DNA from: a virus
Virus record (IMG/VR): IMGVR_UViG_3300028384_001071
Location: 37,565-101,564 of that record
Reading direction: 5' to 3' (one strand)
Length of the DNA stretch: 64,000 nucleotides
The stretch's first letter is position 1; every line of letters begins with the position of its first letter. Of the stretch, positions 33,220 to 36,920 are shown in pieces. The notes beneath the pieces were generated by a model. It ran no database searches, was not told the origin of the DNA, and saw nothing but the letters and a program-made list of their open reading frames with translations. Both the position numbers and the translations under genes were made by a program.

Positions 33220-33226
33220 CGTATAC

Positions 33227-33284
33227 AGGGCCGGAGTCGATGGGTTATCGATGCTACTGAATCCCACCGACAACAACATGCCCT
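33227..33284 (+). ncRNA. Minimal Y-RNA-like hairpin A (normal orientation)
   Basis: AGGGC-CGGA-GTCGATGG-GTTATC...CCCACCGAC-AACAACAT-GCCCT. Confidence 0.7.
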
Positions 33285-33290
33285 AACTTT

Positions 33291-33420
33291 GAAGAGGTAG
33301 GCAACACGGTTAGCCGCGAGTAGTGTAGACCATGACATCAACATTCCCGCCATGCGGGACGGCGTCTATGGATTATCAATAAGGAACTCGTGTATGTTGG
33401 TTCGAATCCAACTCTCTTCA
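33291..33420 (+). ncRNA. tRNA-like RNA B with permuted Y-like helix in the anticodon loop
   Basis: Acceptor GAAGAGG/TCTCTTC-A; D-arm; stem CGAGT/ACTCG; T-arm GTTGG-TTCGAAT-CCAAC; insert TGTAGAC...CAACAT-TCCCGC-CAT-GCGGGA-CGGC-GTCTATG-GATTATC. Confidence 0.7.
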
Positions 33421-33422
33421 CT

Positions 33423-33486
33423 TGCGGGTCGATGTATGACGGTTATCTTTTGGGAAGCTAGTCCCGTCAACACAACTATATCCGCA
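33423..33486 (+). ncRNA. Minimal Y-RNA-like hairpin C (normal orientation)
   Basis: TGCGGGT-CGA-TGTATGACG-GTTATC...CCGTCAACA-CAACTAT-ATCCGCA. Confidence 0.7.
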
Positions 33487-33490
33487 TCCT

Positions 33491-33611
33491 GTCAACGTAG
33501 TGTAATGGAAGCACGCTAAATCATGGTCTCCGACATATGCCTTCTGGGCCGGATGGAAGATCGTTATCGAATTAAAATCGAGTAGTCTAGGTTCGAATCC
33601 TAGCGTTGGCA
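33491..33611 (+). ncRNA. tRNA-like RNA D (UAA anticodon loop) interrupted by a 50-nt permuted Y-like module
   Basis: Acceptor GTCAACG/CGTTGGC-A; D-arm GTGT/GCAC; T-arm CTAGG-TTCGAAT-CCTAG; removing 33518-33567 gives CTCGA-ATTAAAA-TCGAG. Confidence 0.75.
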
Positions 33612-33633
33612 TCCCGAGGTCTCGGGTCTTGAA

Positions 33634-33709
33634 GGCGGGTTGGAGTAGTCTGGCTTATCTCGTCAGGTTTTGATTCTGAAGATCGTAGGTTCGAATCCTA
33701 CACCCGCTT
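33634..33709 (+). tRNA. tRNA-Gln(UUG)
   Basis: Cloverleaf with anticodon arm TCAGG-TTTTGAT-TCTGA; no encoded CCA. Confidence 0.8.
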
Positions 33710-33715
33710 CTATAT

Positions 33716-33790
33716 CGCAGGTTGGAGAAGTCGGGTCATCTCACTTGGCTCATAACCAAGAGATCGTGGGTTCGAATCCCACACCTGCTA
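33716..33790 (+). tRNA. tRNA-Met(CAU), initiator-like
   Basis: C1:U72 mismatch; CTTGG-CTCATAA-CCAAG; T-arm GTGGG-TTCGAAT-CCCAC. Confidence 0.88.
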
Positions 33791-33794
33791 TTAA

Positions 33795-33868
33795 GGGCGA
33801 GTAGCTCAACTGGGAGAGCATCCGGTTTGCAACCGGAAGGTTGCGGGTTCAAGTCCCGCCTCGGTCCA
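33795..33868 (+). tRNA. tRNA-Ala(UGC)
   Basis: TCCGG-TTTGCAA-CCGGA; G3.U70 present; one bulged G in the acceptor stem. Confidence 0.85.
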
Positions 33869-33870
33869 TT

Positions 33871-33934
33871 CGATCCCATTCAGTGCGTAACTGTTATGCT
33901 CGTAAATTCATCGAGCCGGAGGCGATCGGTTATC
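33871..33934 (+). ncRNA. Circularly permuted Y-like module E
   Basis: CGATCCC...TAT-GCTCG-loop-CGAGC-CGGA-GGCGATCG-GTTATC. Confidence 0.6.
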
Positions 33935-34006
33935 TACGAAATTCAAACTGAGGTAAGTAGATTGAAGAATGACTATGGTTAAACGTGGTGTGGGCAACCA
34001 CCAATT

Positions 34007-34055
34007 CGATTGTCGATGACATACCCGCCTGTCGGGTCGGACGATAATCGTTACC
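34007..34055 (+). ncRNA. Circularly permuted Y-like module E2
   Basis: CGATTGTCG-ATGACAT-ACCCG-CCTGT-CGGGT-CGGA-CGATAATCG-TTACC. Confidence 0.65.
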
Positions 34056-34089
34056 CTACGAAAAGCCCACGGGTCGCAAGGCCCAACAC

Positions 34090-34161
34090 TGTACGATAGC
34101 TTAATGGTAAAGCGTCCGGCTGTTAACCGGGTGACTGTAGGTTCGAGTCCTACTCGTACAG
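34090..34161 (+). tRNA. tRNA-Asn(GUU)
   Basis: Acceptor TGTACGA/TCGTACA-G; TCCGG-CTGTTAA-CCGGG. Confidence 0.9.
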
Positions 34162-34169
34162 CTACTTCT

Positions 34170-34264
34170 GGAACCGTTGCCTGTTGGTAGGCACCTGATT
34201 CTCATAACATGCCAAATAGGCCGGAGAGCATTAGTTATCGTTGGTTCGATTCCAATCGGTTCCA
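34170..34264 (+). ncRNA. tRNA-like RNA F whose anticodon arm is a permuted Y-like helix
   Basis: Acceptor GGAACCG/CGGTTCC-A; D-arm GCCT/AGGC; CTGATTCTC-ATAACAT-GCC-AAATA-GGC-CGGA-GAGCATTAG; TTATC as variable loop; T-arm GTTGG-TTCGATT-CCAAT. Confidence 0.8.
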
Positions 34265-34334
34265 CTGACGGCTTCTGTCTGACTTATGACTCACCATACC
34301 TGAGCAAATAGTCCACAGAAGCCGTCCAATACAA

Positions 34335-34430
34335 TTCGATGGTGGTAACTCGCTGGGAGCGGGCAGCGTACGATCTGGATGATCATTCGTGGAGCAAAGA
34401 AGCAGGTTCGATTCCTGCACCAACATCGAA
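34335..34430 (+). ncRNA. Degenerate tRNA-like element
   Basis: Long closing stem TTCGATG-G-TGGT/ACCA-A-CATCGAA with T-arm GCAGG-TTCGATT-CCTGC; no canonical anticodon arm. Confidence 0.5.
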
Positions 34431-34495
34431 GTAGGTAGTCGTGCCATTTCCGAAGCATGGCCACGCAATCTGAAACATAGTGCGACTACCGCCAC

Positions 34496-34566
34496 GGTCC
34501 TAAGGTGTTATGGTAGCATGACTGGTTGTCTACCAGTTGGCCGGGGTTCGACTCCCCGTAGGATCG
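34496..34566 (+). tRNA. tRNA-Asp(GUC)
   Basis: Acceptor GGTCCTA/TAGGATC-G; ACTGG-TTGTCTA-CCAGT. Confidence 0.85.
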
Positions 34567-34644
34567 CTTGGCCTTTGCTAAGGTTAGCAATATCTGCGAA
34601 ACCCTTTGAAAGCATCGGTCCCCATTTCCAAAAGGAACCATGAG

Positions 34645-34785
34645 ATGCAGTGTATTACTGTTGAAGCCATCATCGCAGAACTTCGAGAGATCAAGGATAC
34701 TGTCGATGGTGAACCGGGTCAGGCGAAAGCCAAGATCGAAACACTGATGAACATCCTTGAACGCTCCGAGCGGTCATGTGCGTAA
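34645..34785 (+). CDS. Small hypothetical protein (46 aa) inside the RNA array
   Basis: AAGGA RBS; MQCITVEAIIAELREIKD...ERSCA, an amphipathic helical hairpin. Confidence 0.45.
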   Translation: MQCITVEAIIAELREIKDTVDGEPGQAKAKIETLMNILERSERSCA

Positions 34786-34865
34786 GGCGACCGTGATTTC
34801 ACACATCTCGGAAAGCCTGTCACCGTAAACCTGAATGTGTGCAGGGAATGAAGGTGACACTTTGT

Positions 34866-34971
34866 AGGGCCGGATGATTGATGGTTATCGCTGCCAAACC
34901 TTAGCGACGGTGGAGAGGCCACGTAATGGGTTCGATTCCCACGTTAATCCCGTCATTCTCTAACATGCCTT
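34866..34971 (+). ncRNA. Y-RNA-like RNA G (normal orientation, internal T-loop hairpin; YrlA-like)
   Basis: AGGGC-CGGA-TGATTGATG-GTTATC...TGGG-TTCGATT-CCCA...CCGTCATTC-TCTAACAT-GCCTT. Confidence 0.75.
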
Positions 34972-35103
34972 ACTTTCTATGAATGAAATCCCAGATGAGT
35001 TCAGCGGTACGCTGAGCAACAGATGAAGAAGATCAGGAGGCAGCACTGCTCGCAGTGGCAGCCCCTGATCTATATTGCATCGAATATCTCTTGAGAGTCT
35101 TCA

Positions 35104-35283
35104 ATGATTCGATTCATAGCCGTCAACCCTAACGGGCAACTGATTGACAGCACTTTAAGATGTCAAGAGCAATCTTCAAGAACCGCACTGCTAGCATATC
35201 TCGCAGTTCGAGATGAGAGGTGGGATGACCTAGTCGCGGAAGGCTGGTCCATCAAAGAAGTCACTATCACTCTGGCCGAATAA
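35104..35283 (+). CDS. Small hypothetical protein (59 aa)
   Basis: MIRFIAVNPNG...EGWSIKEVTITLAE; its stop abuts the Ro60 RBS. Confidence 0.5.
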   Translation: MIRFIAVNPNGQLIDSTLRCQEQSSRTALLAYLAVRDERWDDLVAEGWSIKEVTITLAE

Positions 35284-35294
35284 GGAGAATATCC

Positions 35295-36881
35295 ATGCCA
35301 GCAGGAAACCTCGCGAAGCACGTATCAACCCGCCGAACACCTCAAACCCAACGGTCACAACCTGATGAGGTTGTGAACAACGCAGGTGGATTCGTCTTCC
35401 AACTCGACAAGTGGAAGCGTCTGGAACGCTTCCTGATCCTCGGCTCAGACGGCGGGACTTATTACGCCAATGAGCGAGATCTAACCATCGACAATGCACA
35501 AGTCATCAACGACTGTGCTTCCGAAGATGGACGTAAGACAGTTGATGTCATCTGCGAGATTTCGCAGGCCGGACGAGCACCGAAGAACGACCCAGCCATC
35601 TTCGCGATGGCAATGCTCGCAGGTTATGCCGATGACAATACTCGCAAGTATGCACTTGCGAATCTGAACCGAGTGTGTCGTATCGGTACACACCTCTTCC
35701 AGTTCGTCGATGCTGTCGAGAACTTCCGAGGATGGGGACGTGGACTGCGTAGAGCAGTCGGAGCGTGGTACACGGACAAGGATGCCAATCGACTGGCATA
35801 CCAAGTTACGAAGTACCAACAACGAGGTGGCTGGTCACACCGGGATGTACTCCGGTTGGCACACCCAGTCACTGAGAACGCCGAACTAACCGATGTCATC
35901 AAGTATGCAGCCGGGAAGTCCCATGATGGGACTAACCGCCTGATTGAAGGCGTCGAAGAAGTAAAGCGAGCGGGTAGTGCCAGCGAAGTGGTTCGGCTCA
36001 TTACCGAATATGGCCTCGTCCGAGAGCATGTACCAACCGAATGGTTGGGTGACGTGCAGGTGTGGGAAGCTCTCGTCGAGAAGATGCCAATCACTGCGAT
36101 GATCCGGAACTTGGGTAAGATGACCAGCAATGGTCTCCTCACTCCGATGAGCAACGCAGCGATGAAGGTCATCGCCAATCTTCGCGACGTCGAGAAACTG
36201 CGGCAGGGACGGGTACACCCGCTCGCTGTTCTTACCGCAATGAAGGTTTACTCTCAAGGTAAGGGAATCCGTGGCAGCCTGTCTTGGACACCTGTCAGTC
36301 AGATTTCCGATGCCTTGGACGACGCCTTCTATGCTTCGTTCGGAGTGATCGAGCCAGCCAATAAGCGGACGCTGATTGGTCTCGATGTGTCTGGATCAAT
36401 GTACGGAGGTTGGGGTGGTGATATCCAAGGAAGCCCACTCTGTGCAGCAGAAGCCTCAGCCGCAATGGCAATGGTTTCTGCAAGAACCGAGCCGTTCTTC
36501 CAGTTGATGGCTTTCTCCGATACGTTCCGTGACGTTACGTTCGGGGCCAAGTCAAGACTGGATGATGTACTTTCACGAACACGAAATATGACCTTCGGTT
36601 GTACTGACTGTTCACTTCCAATGATCTATGCGTCGGAGAACAACATTGATGTTGACACGTTCATGGTGCTCACCGACAGTGAGACGTATGCCGGAAGTAT
36701 CAAACCTCACCAAGCAATCCAACAATATCGTCAGAAGACGGGCATCCCTGCGAAGCTCGTTGTCGTCGGTATGACAGCGACCGGATTCAGCATTGCTGAT
36801 CCGAACGATGCCGGAATGCTTGATGTAGTGGGGTTTGACACGGCCGCTCCAAACATCATTTCCGACTTCTCGCGAAGCTAA
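35295..36881 (+). CDS. rsr: Ro60/TROVE-domain RNA-binding protein
   Basis: NNAGGFVF, RFLILGSDGGTYY, TKYQQRGGWSHRDVLRLAHP, MPITAMIRNLGKMT; vWA MIDAS DVSGSM, TDCSLPM, TDSET; GMLDVVGFD. Confidence 0.95.
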   Translation: MPAGNLAKHVSTRRTPQTQRSQPDEVVNNAGGFVFQLDKWKRLERFLILGSDGGTYYANERDLTIDNAQVINDCASEDGRKTVDVICEISQAGRAPKNDPAIFAMAMLAGYADDNTRKYALANLNRVCRIGTHLFQFVDAVENFRGWGRGLRRAVGAWYTDKDANRLAYQVTKYQQRGGWSHRDVLRLAHPVTENAELTDVIKYAAGKSHDGTNRLIEGVEEVKRAGSASEVVRLITEYGLVREHVPTEWLGDVQVWEALVEKMPITAMIRNLGKMTSNGLLTPMSNAAMKVIANLRDVEKLRQGRVHPLAVLTAMKVYSQGKGIRGSLSWTPVSQISDALDDAFYASFGVIEPANKRTLIGLDVSGSMYGGWGGDIQGSPLCAAEASAAMAMVSARTEPFFQLMAFSDTFRDVTFGAKSRLDDVLSRTRNMTFGCTDCSLPMIYASENNIDVDTFMVLTDSETYAGSIKPHQAIQQYRQKTGIPAKLVVVGMTATGFSIADPNDAGMLDVVGFDTAAPNIISDFSRS

Positions 36882-36886
36882 TTCAT

Positions 36887-36920
36887 AGGCCGCTGCCCTG
36901 TAATGGGGCAGCGGCCTTTC
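36887..36920 (+). terminator. Intrinsic terminator after Ro60
   Basis: AGGCCGCTGCCC-loop-GGGCAGCGGCCT-TTC. Confidence 0.75.

What the first reader, a model, noticed from the sequence alone, without database searches (positions are those of the whole stretch)
33227..36920. Phage Ro60 with an array of eight Y-RNA-like modules interleaved among tRNAs
Seen: a motif of stem-C-G-R-N-(stem)-GTTATC paired with (stem)-[C/T]AT-stem recurs at 33227, 33324, 33423, about 33522, 33871, 34007, about 34195 and 34866. Stem sequences differ but stay complementary, while loop bases are conserved. The array ends just before an intact Ro60 gene and a terminator. Known: Ro60/Rsr binds a bulged-C helix in Y RNAs, bacterial Y RNAs are encoded next to rsr, YrlA mimics tRNA, and Y RNA tethers Rsr to PNPase in Deinococcus. 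Inference: one Ro60 serves a library of adaptor RNAs with different effector ends (minimal, T-loop, full tRNA body), for example decoys for anticodon nucleases or tethers to RNA enzymes. I know of no described system with this many modules in both topologies, but could not search the literature.
Basis: partly seen in the sequence, partly recalled or inferred. Interest (0 to 1): 0.93.

Follow-up and report, generated by a model that had tools for sequence, protein, structure and literature searches.

The report
Phage Ro60 with eight Y RNAs
An uncultured phage carries, just upstream of its gene for the ring-shaped RNA-binding protein Ro60, eight small RNA genes that all share the Ro60 docking helix; several are wired into tRNA-shaped bodies in a way I found no description of, and the same design recurs in many other phages.

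Summary
All eight modules are present at the stated places, on the Ro60 strand, within 1.75 kb. The chance expectation for the 5' half motif there is about 0.18. Covariance models built only from other phages find seven of the eight (E 7e-7 to 0.014) and the eighth weakly (E 0.88). They find nothing else convincing in the 101-kb genome.

These are Y RNAs, the known partners of Ro60. Across 80 other Ro60-encoding viral contigs, 151 such modules all lie on the Ro60 strand, 140 within 1 kb of the gene, with strong covariation. Arrays of 2 to 6 are usual; eight is the most I saw.

Three modules are linear and five are circularly permuted. Three of the permuted ones sit in tRNA-shaped RNAs with an open 7-bp acceptor stem. 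That is the reverse wiring of published YrlA. In one of them (33491-33611), and in 14 RNAs from 12 other contigs, the Ro60 arm is inserted between tRNA positions 28 and 29, and an anticodon-like loop is kept.

Ro60 binding, expression and function were not tested. This scan has noted similar RNA arrays beside Ro60-like genes on other DNA. Verdict: new variant of a known kind.

The parts
33224..33285 (+). RNA A = module 1. A minimal linear Y RNA: stem 1 AGGGC/GCCCU, then CGGA, stem 2, GUUAUC loop, and a linker ending ACAU.
   Evidence: R1 30.5 bits, E 6e-5. Rfam RF01656 (nematode sbRNA, a Y RNA homologue) 36 bits against a gathering score of 38. The MFE fold reproduces the two stems.
33290..33420 (+). 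RNA B. tRNA-shaped (7-bp acceptor, D arm, T arm). Its anticodon loop is replaced by permuted module 2 (core 33330-33377, stem 1 closed by a CAU loop, AUUAUC variant).
   Evidence: The MFE fold is a cloverleaf with a long Y arm. The 3' half was found by the scan. R2 is weak at 11.6 bits, E 0.88.
33422..33487 (+). RNA C = module 3, a minimal linear Y RNA.
   Evidence: R1 38.7 bits, E 7e-7; fold.
33491..33611 (+). RNA D. tRNA-shaped, with permuted module 4 (33517-33568) inserted between tRNA positions 28 and 29. It keeps a 7-nt anticodon-like loop AUUAAAA (UAA) and has discriminator A.
   Evidence: R2 33.2 bits, E 8e-7. Deleting 33518-33567 gives an ARAGORN tRNA (taa) whatever the exact cut. It is a member of the 15-sequence class alignment A6, which shows covariation.
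33613..33626 (+). Small GC hairpin (CCCGAG-GU-CUCGGG) between RNA D and tRNA-Gln.
   Evidence: Read from the sequence. Function unknown.
33634..33867 (+). Three canonical tRNAs: Gln(UUG) 33634-33710, Met(CAU) 33715-33791, Ala(UGC) 33795-33867.
   Evidence: ARAGORN; Rfam tRNA 55-62 bits.
33868..33934 (+). RNA E = module 5, permuted. It starts directly after tRNA-Ala. Stem 1 is closed by a 9-nt loop, and the 3' linker carries an extra small hairpin. No tRNA body.
   Evidence: R2 18 bits, E 0.014. The MFE fold pairs 33870-33877 with the stem-2 5' strand. The 3' end is not defined.
33990..34071 (+). RNA F = module 6 (core 34001-34055), permuted. It is enclosed by an outer 6-bp helix, so it is a stand-alone hairpin with the Ro site inverted. 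It ends just before tRNA-Asn.
   Evidence: R2 30.2 bits, E 5e-6; MFE fold.
34090..34162 (+). tRNA-Asn(GUU).
   Evidence: 72.6 bits.
34170..34264 (+). RNA G. A tRNA-shaped RNA whose anticodon arm is module 7 itself (core 34189-34239). UUAUC lies in the variable-loop position. 7-bp acceptor, discriminator A.
   Evidence: Rfam tRNA 36.4 bits, above the gathering score of 29, with a 27-nt insert. R2 23.2 bits, E 5e-4. The MFE fold is a cloverleaf.
34267..34490 (+). Three further structured RNAs without a Ro site. H (34267-34326) is a 12-bp perfect hairpin. I (34338-34427) is a tRNA-like RNA with a T arm and an ..ACAU-CGAA 3' strand, but no C-G-R motif. J (34434-34490) is a hairpin.
   Evidence: Folds (H has z -7.5). 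I scores 21.9 bits on tRNA-Sec, which is weak. No R1 or R2 hit.
34496..34567 (+). tRNA-Asp(GUC).
34645..34785 (+). 46-aa ORF preceded by AAGGAA. No family match.
   Evidence: Sequence; no PHROG match.
34863..34974 (+). RNA K = module 8, linear. The Ro helix is formed by the 5' and 3' ends, in the position of an extended acceptor stem. It encloses two hairpins and a T arm (T arm last).
   Evidence: R1 25 bits, E 1.2e-3, with a 52-nt insert. The MFE fold gives the Ro helix plus three hairpins. The T-loop motif is at position 68 of the RNA.
35104..35283 (+). 59-aa ORF directly upstream of Ro60. No family match.
35272..35301 (+). Ro-site-like mini hairpin CUGGC-CGAA..AAGGAG..-CAU-GCCAG that encloses the Shine-Dalgarno sequence and AUG of Ro60. 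A possible autoregulatory operator.
   Evidence: Sequence. A related stem-1 hairpin plus CGAA directly before the SD of Ro60 occurs in L007, L035, L041, L044, L050, L051 and L062. It is not a general feature.
35295..36881 (+). Ro60 (TROVE + vWA), 528 aa, intact.
   Evidence: Pfam PF05731 6e-47 and PF25045 5e-64. phrog_850 2e-85. PDB 1yvp 1e-126, 9nen, 2nvo.
36887..36917 (+). GC-rich 12-bp hairpin followed by UUUCUG. Terminator-like.
   Evidence: Sequence. Not called by the consensus scan.

Best explanation
This is a phage-encoded Ro60 ribonucleoprotein system with an unusually large set of Y RNAs.

Shown from sequence and comparison:
- Eight RNAs upstream of Ro60, on its strand, each carry the Ro60 docking module. 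The module is stem 1, a bulged C, G-R, stem 2 with one irregularity, and GUUAUC, opposite a 3' strand ending in YAU before stem 1'.
- The window's form is the actinophage/YrlA-type variant, in which mainly the 5' strand is conserved.
- The distal parts differ. There are two bare hairpins (A, C) and two inverted stand-alone hairpins (E, F).
- There are three tRNA-shaped RNAs with an open acceptor stem and the Ro arm in or beside the anticodon arm (B, D, G).
- One RNA has the Ro helix as an extended acceptor stem around a T-arm body (K).

Inferred:
- The stretch is transcribed as one or a few precursors together with the five tRNAs.
- Because tRNAs and tRNA-shaped units alternate with the bare modules at 0-7 nt spacing, host RNase P and 3' tRNA processing would release every RNA. 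The open acceptor ends could receive CCA.
- Each RNA then docks on the outer face of the Ro60 ring through the shared helix.
- The bare hairpins would mainly gate the ring. The tRNA-shaped ones would tether it to tRNA-binding partners or exoribonucleases such as PNPase.
- This would redirect RNA decay or guard the tRNA pool during infection, probably as a counter to host defence.
For: The motif is 8-fold enriched with matching 3' halves.

Independent models from other phages recover 7 of 8 at E<=0.014, only on the + strand, and only here in the 101-kb genome.

Association with Ro60:
- In 80 other Ro60 loci (806 kb, both strands) there are 151 hits (126 R1 plus 25 short R2), all on the Ro60 strand.
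- 140 of them lie within 1 kb of the gene, which is 9% of the search space. The median distance is 237 nt.

Structure:
- Covariation on 117 distinct linear modules: 81% of cells paired against 61% shuffled. There are 576 double-change cells against 236+-14, with 0 of 500 shuffles reaching this. Slid controls score <=0.195 against 0.583.
- Module 1, and a module in L011, score 36-37 bits on the nematode sbRNA (Y RNA homologue) family, whose gathering score is 38.
- Cashline's long module scores 42 bits on Rfam YrlA.
- The tRNA-shaped class (15 RNAs including 33490-33614) has a 7-bp acceptor stem that is 100% paired, with all pairs covarying.
- The full five-arm structure of that class is 89% paired against 67% shuffled, with 125 against 38+-5 double changes.

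Negative controls: 0 hits in two Ro60-less phage tRNA arrays and 0 in 48 Ro60-less viral loci. Genomes with hits but no nearby Ro60 encode TROVE elsewhere in 3 of the 3 large records checked (G001-G003); L115 was not checked.

Published precedent:
- Y RNAs are encoded next to rsr. Yrn2-tRNAAsp-Yrn1 is a polycistron. M. smegmatis YrlA is cut by RNase P and gains CCA (PMC4201824).
- Phage phiLo Ro60 binds two upstream Yrl RNAs and host PNPase (PMC12135203).
- The Ro60-like gp130 of phage Bas63 counters a defence system (PMC11482910).
Against: - There are no expression data.
- No sigma-70-like promoter was found upstream.
- Ro60 binding cannot be computed here.
- In the window the 3' strand reads YAU, not the YUU that pairs with G-A in most other phages and in animals. 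The short G.U/A-U helix next to the bulged C is therefore not formed (G.U then G.A).
- Module 2 is divergent: AUUAUC, a U-A closing pair, E 0.88.
- Stems 1 of modules 4 and 7 are only 4 and 3 bp.
- Model E-values are rough because calibration was shortened.
- The phage has no RtcB, so a link to RNA repair is not indicated.
Confidence: 0.8

Rival explanations
1. The permuted modules inside tRNA-shaped RNAs are intron-like inserts. The precursor would be cut at the A-rich 5' linker and after GUUAU, and the exons joined. This would give a normal 71-nt tRNA (a UAA anticodon for RNA D) plus a free, possibly circular, Y RNA.
For: Deleting the module restores an ARAGORN tRNA in the window and in many other phages. 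The anticodon does not depend on the exact cut. The insert is always between positions 28 and 29. The 27-28:42-43 pairs across it covary. The loops keep U33 and a purine at 37.
Against: - No bacterial enzyme is known that splices at this position (own knowledge).
- There is no bulge-helix-bulge motif at the junctions (by eye).
- The phage has no RtcB.
- The classic linear YrlA of phage FuzzBuster carries the identical hairpin (CAC-CUGUUAA-GUG) as its 'V' arm, where no splicing could restore a tRNA.
- Discriminator bases mostly do not fit the anticodon's amino acid.
- Modules 2 and 7 leave no anticodon loop behind.
Confidence: 0.08
2. The main job of the array is to act as a decoy or shield in the conflict over tRNAs. 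The anticodon-like loops and tRNA bodies would draw host anticodon nucleases or other tRNA-targeting defence proteins onto Ro60-bound RNAs. Tethering Ro60 to an exonuclease would not be the main role.
For: - The anticodon-like loops keep the 7-nt architecture while the triplet differs between phages: UAA, GUU, GCU, GCA, UUU, UCU, GAU, UGA, CAU, UCG.
- The arrays sit in phage tRNA clusters.
- Ro60-like gp130 of Bas63 is needed against the ppl defence system (PMC11482910).
Against: Nothing here shows an interaction with any nuclease. Five of the eight window modules have no anticodon-like loop. In the one phage system studied in vitro, the partner was PNPase (PMC12135203).
Confidence: 0.2
3. The repeats are processing or regulatory signals of the tRNA operon, or decayed tRNA genes, and are not Ro60 ligands.
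For: They lie in a tRNA cluster. Some are tRNA-shaped. Expression and binding are untested.
Against: The modules follow Ro60, not tRNAs. There are none in Ro60-less tRNA arrays. They are present next to Ro60 in loci with no tRNA at all, such as L008, L016, L017, L042, L048 and L054. The conserved 5' strand is the published Ro60 contact motif (PMC4201824). Covariation shows selection on the fold.
Confidence: 0.04

Closest known systems
YrlA-type bacterial and mycobacteriophage Y RNAs (Rfam RF02553; Chen et al. 2014, PMC4201824; structure preprint 10.1101/312249)
   Same: Encoded within a few kb of Ro60 on its strand. The 5' strand carries the GNCGAAN0-1G-like motif (here GNCGGAN). The Ro helix is joined to a tRNA-like body with D and T arms. 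The conserved UA lies in GUUAUC. The small hairpin before the T arm in RNA D corresponds to the YrlA 'V' arm; FuzzBuster YrlA and the L011 chimera share it letter for letter.
   Different: YrlA has its ends in the Ro helix, a closed acceptor stem, no CCA end and the order V-T-AS-D. Window RNAs B, D and G are the circular permutation of this: open 7-bp acceptor, tRNA order, and a Ro helix closed by a small loop. Rfam YrlA does not detect them.
Deinococcus radiodurans Yrn1/Yrn2 with tRNA-Asp (PMC4201824)
   Same: Several Y RNAs lie upstream of rsr and are co-transcribed with a tRNA. Yrn1 has the T arm downstream of an anticodon-like arm with the Ro helix at the RNA ends, like window RNA K. Yrn2 is a plain hairpin like RNAs A and C.
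   Different: Two Y RNAs and one tRNA there, against eight modules and five tRNAs here. There are no permuted modules in Deinococcus. I could not compare sequences because none is held.
Thermus phage phiLo Ro60 with Yrl1 and Yrl2 (PMC12135203; PDB 9KOP, 9L5Y)
   Same: A phage Ro60 with Y-like RNAs directly upstream. Binding to Ro60 and to host PNPase was shown there.
   Different: Two simple RNAs and no tRNA-shaped chimeras. phiLo Ro60 did not appear among PDB sequence matches at E<=1e-5, so it is a distant relative.
Animal Y RNAs and nematode stem-bulge RNAs (Rfam RF00019, RF01656)
   Same: Stem, bulged C, G-A, second stem, then GUUAUC-like bases (this resemblance to human Y RNAs is from my own knowledge). 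Module 1 scores 36 bits on RF01656, whose gathering score is 38.
   Different: Animal Y RNAs have no tRNA-like body or permuted forms. The window's 3' strand (YAU) does not form the G.U/A-U pairs.

Membership tests
Y RNA in the broad sense (a Ro60-bound RNA with a bulged helix) | Conserved 5' strand: stem ending G-G-Y, bulged C, G, R | tested here: met
   All 8 copies fit. R1 and R2 models from other phages match 7 of 8.
Y RNA in the broad sense (a Ro60-bound RNA with a bulged helix) | 3' strand that pairs with G-A (UU) next to the bulged C | tested here: not met
   The window has YAU in all 8, giving G.U then G.A. Most other phages have YUU. Actinophage and published YrlA RNAs also conserve only the 5' strand (PMC4201824).
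Y RNA in the broad sense (a Ro60-bound RNA with a bulged helix) | Encoded beside a Ro60 gene on the same strand | tested here: met
   The modules lie 320-2070 nt upstream of Ro60. The same holds for 151 of 151 modules in 80 loci.
Y RNA in the broad sense (a Ro60-bound RNA with a bulged helix) | Bound by Ro60 in cells | not testable with these tools
   This needs RIP or EMSA.
Y RNA in the broad sense (a Ro60-bound RNA with a bulged helix) | Reaches an Rfam gathering score (RF00019 or RF01656) | tested here: not met
   RF01656 gives 36 bits against 38 for module 1 only. There is no RF00019 hit.
YrlA (RF02553) | tRNA-like domain with D and T arms joined to the Ro helix | tested here: met
   RNAs B, D and G fold as cloverleaves. 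RNA G scores 36.4 bits on the tRNA model. The class alignment covaries.
YrlA (RF02553) | Ends in the Ro helix, closed acceptor stem, order V-T-AS-D | tested here: not met
   B, D and G have an open acceptor stem and a closed Ro helix. K has its T arm last.
YrlA (RF02553) | Rfam gathering score of 69 bits | tested here: not met
   The only match is a spurious 23-bit hit across two tRNAs.
tRNA (RF00005) | Cloverleaf with a 7-bp acceptor stem, D and T arms, and a 7-nt anticodon loop | tested here: inconclusive
   RNA D has all of these, but with a 50-nt arm at 28|29. RNA G passes the Rfam cut-off but has no anticodon loop. Charging and decoding are untested.
Ro60 / TROVE protein | TROVE HEAT-repeat ring plus C-terminal vWA domain, full length | tested here: met
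   PF05731 and PF25045. 1yvp aligned over residues 16-526.

The most novel reading that the evidence does not exclude
The tRNA-order chimeras form a distinct, widespread class of 'Y-arm tRNAs'. They are tRNA genes that carry a Ro60-binding arm between positions 28 and 29, and they keep an open, CCA-competent acceptor end and a true anticodon-loop architecture. On this reading they are processed like tRNAs and present an anticodon loop and a Ro60 ring on one molecule. That would couple Ro60 to translation factors or to anticodon-targeting defence nucleases. They would also be the missing monomer from which published YrlA arose, by joining the halves of two tandem copies.
Probability: 0.25. Interest if true: 0.85.

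Novelty: new variant of a known kind. Interest (0 to 1): 0.66.

Why it matters
Ro60 and its Y RNAs are conserved from bacteria to humans, and Ro60 is a major lupus autoantigen. What the variable ends of Y RNAs recruit is still largely open. This work bears on that in four ways:

- **A natural test set.** One protein has eight RNAs that share one docking helix but carry different ends, and dozens of related arrays exist in other phages.
- **Reverse wiring.** The tRNA-order chimeras are wired the opposite way to published YrlA. They are invisible to ARAGORN and Rfam. Some keep an anticodon-like loop.
- **Origin of Y RNAs.** The idea that Y RNAs arose from tRNAs becomes directly testable.
- **Function.** The arrays point to a role for phage Ro60 particles in the conflict over tRNAs.

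They also show that many phage 'intergenic' stretches next to Ro60 are dense with unannotated RNA genes.

Tried and rejected
- **Contig look-up.** The contigs of the two closest Ro60 relatives (67% and 64% identity) could not be read, so close-relative conservation of this exact array is untested.
- **First viral scan.** A single-protein scan of viral contigs found nothing. An alignment-based scan worked.
- **First 3'-half scanner.** It required AT before stem 1' and was not specific: 58 of 400 decoys passed. A looser version was worse, with 167 of 400. I dropped both as statistics and used them only to collect seeds for covariance models.
- **Collection pattern.** My pattern GGGCCGAAG-N7-9-GGTTATC had the spacer one base too long. 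Most of its 62 matches are at the level expected by chance. I reused them as a negative control.
- **Rfam.** The YrlA and Y_RNA models do not detect the window's RNAs.
- **Promoter and terminator scan.** Uninformative.
- **RtcB.** Absent from the phage.
- **Recent tRNA copies.** The tRNA-shaped RNAs are not recent copies of the phage's own tRNAs; identity is 55-72%.
- **Hairpin over the Ro60 start.** A general search for a Ro-site hairpin over the Ro60 start codon gave mostly noise. Only a subset of loci show it.
- **Pure chance or tRNA pseudogenes.** Rejected on the strand, distance and covariation data.

Full report
**What is there**

The window is part of a 101,564-bp IMG/VR virus record. 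The ORF at 35295-36881 is a full-length Ro60:
- TROVE 6e-47 and the Ro60 vWA domain 5e-64.
- phrog_850 2e-85.
- Frog Ro60 1yvp E 1e-126, human RO60 and Deinococcus Rsr.

It lies among replication genes: primase, a ParB-like gene and an SNF2-type helicase. Upstream, 33224-34974 holds almost no protein-coding sequence. ARAGORN and Rfam see five tRNAs there: Gln, Met, Ala, Asn and Asp.

**The observation**

The 5' half motif is [stem 1]-C-G-R-N-N-[7-8 nt]-RTTAYC. It occurs eight times on the + strand between 33232 and 34871. It occurs 13 times in the remaining ~126 kb of both strands. About 0.18 matches would therefore be expected in this stretch.

Every copy has the complementary 3' half, which is stem 2', a linker ending YAU, then stem 1'.
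- In modules 1, 3 and 8 it lies downstream (linear).
- In modules 2, 4, 5, 6 and 7 it lies just upstream, and stem 1 is closed by a 3-9 nt loop (circularly permuted).

Two corrections apply. There are two small ORFs (34645-34785 and 35104-35283) inside or after the array. The hairpin after Ro60 (36887-36917) has only a weak U tract.

**Independent test with other phages**

The closest Ro60 proteins are 67% and 64% identical. An alignment-based scan gave 80 viral loci with Ro60 at 47-55% identity, out of 369 found.

The motif clusters next to Ro60 on its strand in most of them. From those loci only, I built two covariance models:
- R1 from 52 linear modules.
- R2 from 13 permuted modules.

In the window, R1 finds modules 3, 1 and 8 (E 7e-7, 6e-5, 1e-3). 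R2 finds modules 4, 6, 7 and 5 (E 8e-7, 5e-6, 5e-4, 0.014) and module 2 only weakly (E 0.88). Nothing else credible is found in the whole virus genome.

Over the 80 loci (806 kb, both strands):
- All 126 R1 hits and all R2 hits lie on the Ro60 strand.
- R2 hits longer than 60 nt are junctions of neighbouring linear modules. Leaving those out gives 151 modules.
- 140 of these lie within 1 kb of Ro60, which is 9% of the search space. The median distance is 237 nt.

On 117 distinct linear modules the structure covaries strongly:
- 81% of cells paired against 61% in shuffles.
- 576 double changes against 236+-14.
- Slid controls at most 0.195 against 0.583.

**Specificity**

- Two phage tRNA arrays without Ro60 (29 tRNAs) give no hit at E<=1. 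Four cultured Ro60 phages all give hits.
- A mis-spaced collection pattern yielded 62 mostly random viral loci.
- In that set, R1 hit the 8 loci that hold Ro60 and 6 others, and none of the remaining 48.
- I searched five of those 6 records for TROVE. The three large ones encode it elsewhere. The other two are 11-33% fragments with no TROVE match. L115 was not tested.
- So the modules follow Ro60, not tRNA arrays.

**What kind of Y RNA**

In most other phages the module reads GGGC-C-GA-AG..GGUUAUC opposite CA..CUU-GCCC. That gives a bulged C followed by G.U and A-U, as in animal Y RNAs. Module 1 and an L011 module nearly reach the gathering score of the nematode stem-bulge (Y RNA homologue) family.

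The window's eight copies all read CGG or CGA opposite YAU, so those two pairs are lost. The same CAACAU/CAACAC 3' linker is used by Streptomyces, Gordonia and Microbacterium phage modules. This fits the published remark that only the 5' strand is recognisable in YrlA-type RNAs (PMC4201824). Cashline's long module scores 42 bits on Rfam YrlA.

**Architectures in the window** (folds)

- A and C are bare hairpins.
- E and F are permuted stand-alone hairpins.
- K has the Ro helix at its ends around two hairpins and a T arm, with the T arm last. That orientation is described for Deinococcus Yrn1.
- B, D and G are tRNA-shaped, with an open 7-bp acceptor stem, D and T arms, and the Ro module closed by a loop in or beside the anticodon arm. 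G passes the Rfam tRNA cut-off with a 27-nt insert.

Published YrlA is the opposite. Its ends are in the Ro helix, its acceptor stem is closed, it has no CCA end and no anticodon loop, and it is described as 'circularly permuted tRNA' (10.1101/312249; PMC4201824).

**The tRNA-order class**

Deleting the R2 match from RNA D restores an ARAGORN tRNA (UAA) whatever the exact cut. The same holds for modules in L003, L010, L011, L016, L028, L031, L048, L056, L072 and others, with different triplets.

Features of the class:
- The insert always lies between tRNA positions 28 and 29. It begins with an A-rich linker and ends with GUUAU.
- Fifteen such RNAs, from 12 other contigs plus the window, align.
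- RNAalifold recovers the acceptor, D, stem 1 and T helices. The acceptor is 100% paired, with compensatory changes at all seven pairs.
- My full five-arm structure is 89% paired against 67% shuffled, with 125 against 38+-5 double changes.
- The two pairs that bridge the insert (27-28 with 42-43) both covary.
- U33 is invariant in the alignment.

The small hairpin is the same element as the 'V' arm of classic YrlA. FuzzBuster's YrlA and the L011 chimera share it exactly. The simplest reading is therefore a circular permutation of YrlA, not an intron. The discriminator bases mostly do not fit the triplets. The bodies are not recent copies of the phage's own tRNAs. About 14 of the 80 loci hold at least one such RNA.

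**How common are arrays**

By the two models at strict thresholds, loci hold 1 module (21 loci), 2 (19), 3 (15), 4 (4), 5 (6, including the window) or 6 (1). With the weaker hits, the window's eight is the most I saw.

Cultured phages carry unannotated modules too:
- Beuffert has at least four, interleaved with its tRNAs.
- FuzzBuster has three.
- Ava3 has two.
- Cashline has one.

**Likely mechanism**

- **Shown:** the shared docking module, its tie to Ro60, the folds, and the tight alternation of tRNA or tRNA-shaped units with bare modules (0-7 nt spacers).
[quoted passage not shown] Also inferred: docking of each RNA on Ro60, with gating by the bare RNAs and tethering by the tRNA-shaped ones.
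- **From other systems:** phage phiLo Ro60 binds its two RNAs and host PNPase in vitro (PMC12135203). Ro60-like gp130 of Bas63 is needed against the ppl defence system and sits next to tRNA genes (PMC11482910). A Listeria phage makes three abundant RNAs upstream of an Rsr-like gene (PMC12282133).
- **Not tested here:** expression, binding and function.

**Comparison with the literature**

In the papers I could search, I found no description of arrays this large. I also found none of tRNA-order Y RNAs with open acceptor stems, or of the 28|29 insertion class. The 2018 and 2020 reviews by Sim and Wolin are not held, so prior mention there cannot be excluded.

Earlier notes of this scan report similar handle-sharing RNA arrays next to Ro60-like genes in other phages. 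Notes on this same window had already pointed out RNA D, RNA G and the hairpin over the Ro60 start.

**Verdict**

This is a real Ro60-linked Y RNA array, large for its kind. It is a new variant of a known kind, and its most interesting part is the tRNA-order chimeras.

Noticed in passing
window 35272-35301: A mini Ro-site-like hairpin (CUGGC-CGAA..AAGGAG..CAU-GCCAG) encloses the Shine-Dalgarno sequence and start codon of Ro60. Several other loci (L007, L035, L041, L044, L050, L051, L062) have a stem-1 hairpin plus CGAA directly before the Ro60 SD. This suggests autoregulation of Ro60 translation in some lineages.
   Followed up: partly
window 34267-34326: A perfect 12-bp stem hairpin (z-score -7.5) lies between RNA G and the next tRNA-like RNA. 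It has no Ro motif and no U tract. It could be a processing site or a further small RNA.
   Followed up: no
window 34338-34427: A tRNA-like RNA with a T arm. Its end helix keeps the ..ACAU-stem 3' strand and G-UAAC after stem 2, but it lacks the C-G-R bases that Ro60 contacts. It looks like a ninth module that has lost the docking site.
   Followed up: partly
window 33715-33791: tRNA-Met(CAU) has a C1.U72 mismatch at the top of the acceptor stem, but it does not have the three G-C pairs of an initiator anticodon stem.
   Followed up: no
L094 (Streptomyces phage Beuffert, MT952852.1) 1133-1206, 1286-1420, about 1425-1575, 2285-2348: This cultured phage has at least four unannotated Y RNA modules between its annotated tRNA genes, 1.3-2.5 kb upstream of its Ro-like gene. 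That makes it a tractable model.
   Followed up: partly
L011 4369-4493 and L048 269-391: Two phages carry chimeras with the same acceptor 3' strand. Their anticodon-like loops differ by one base (CUGUUAA against CUGAUAA). The triplet changes while the loop architecture is kept.
   Followed up: partly
L097 (Microbacterium phage FuzzBuster) 2701-2828: The classic-order YrlA here has a 'V' hairpin with a canonical 7-nt anticodon-like loop (CUGUUAA). This suggests that the V arm of YrlA is a former anticodon arm.
   Followed up: partly
window 34645-34785 and 35104-35283: Two small ORFs (46 and 59 aa) with no family match are embedded in or after the RNA array. The second ends inside the hairpin over the Ro60 start.
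   Followed up: partly
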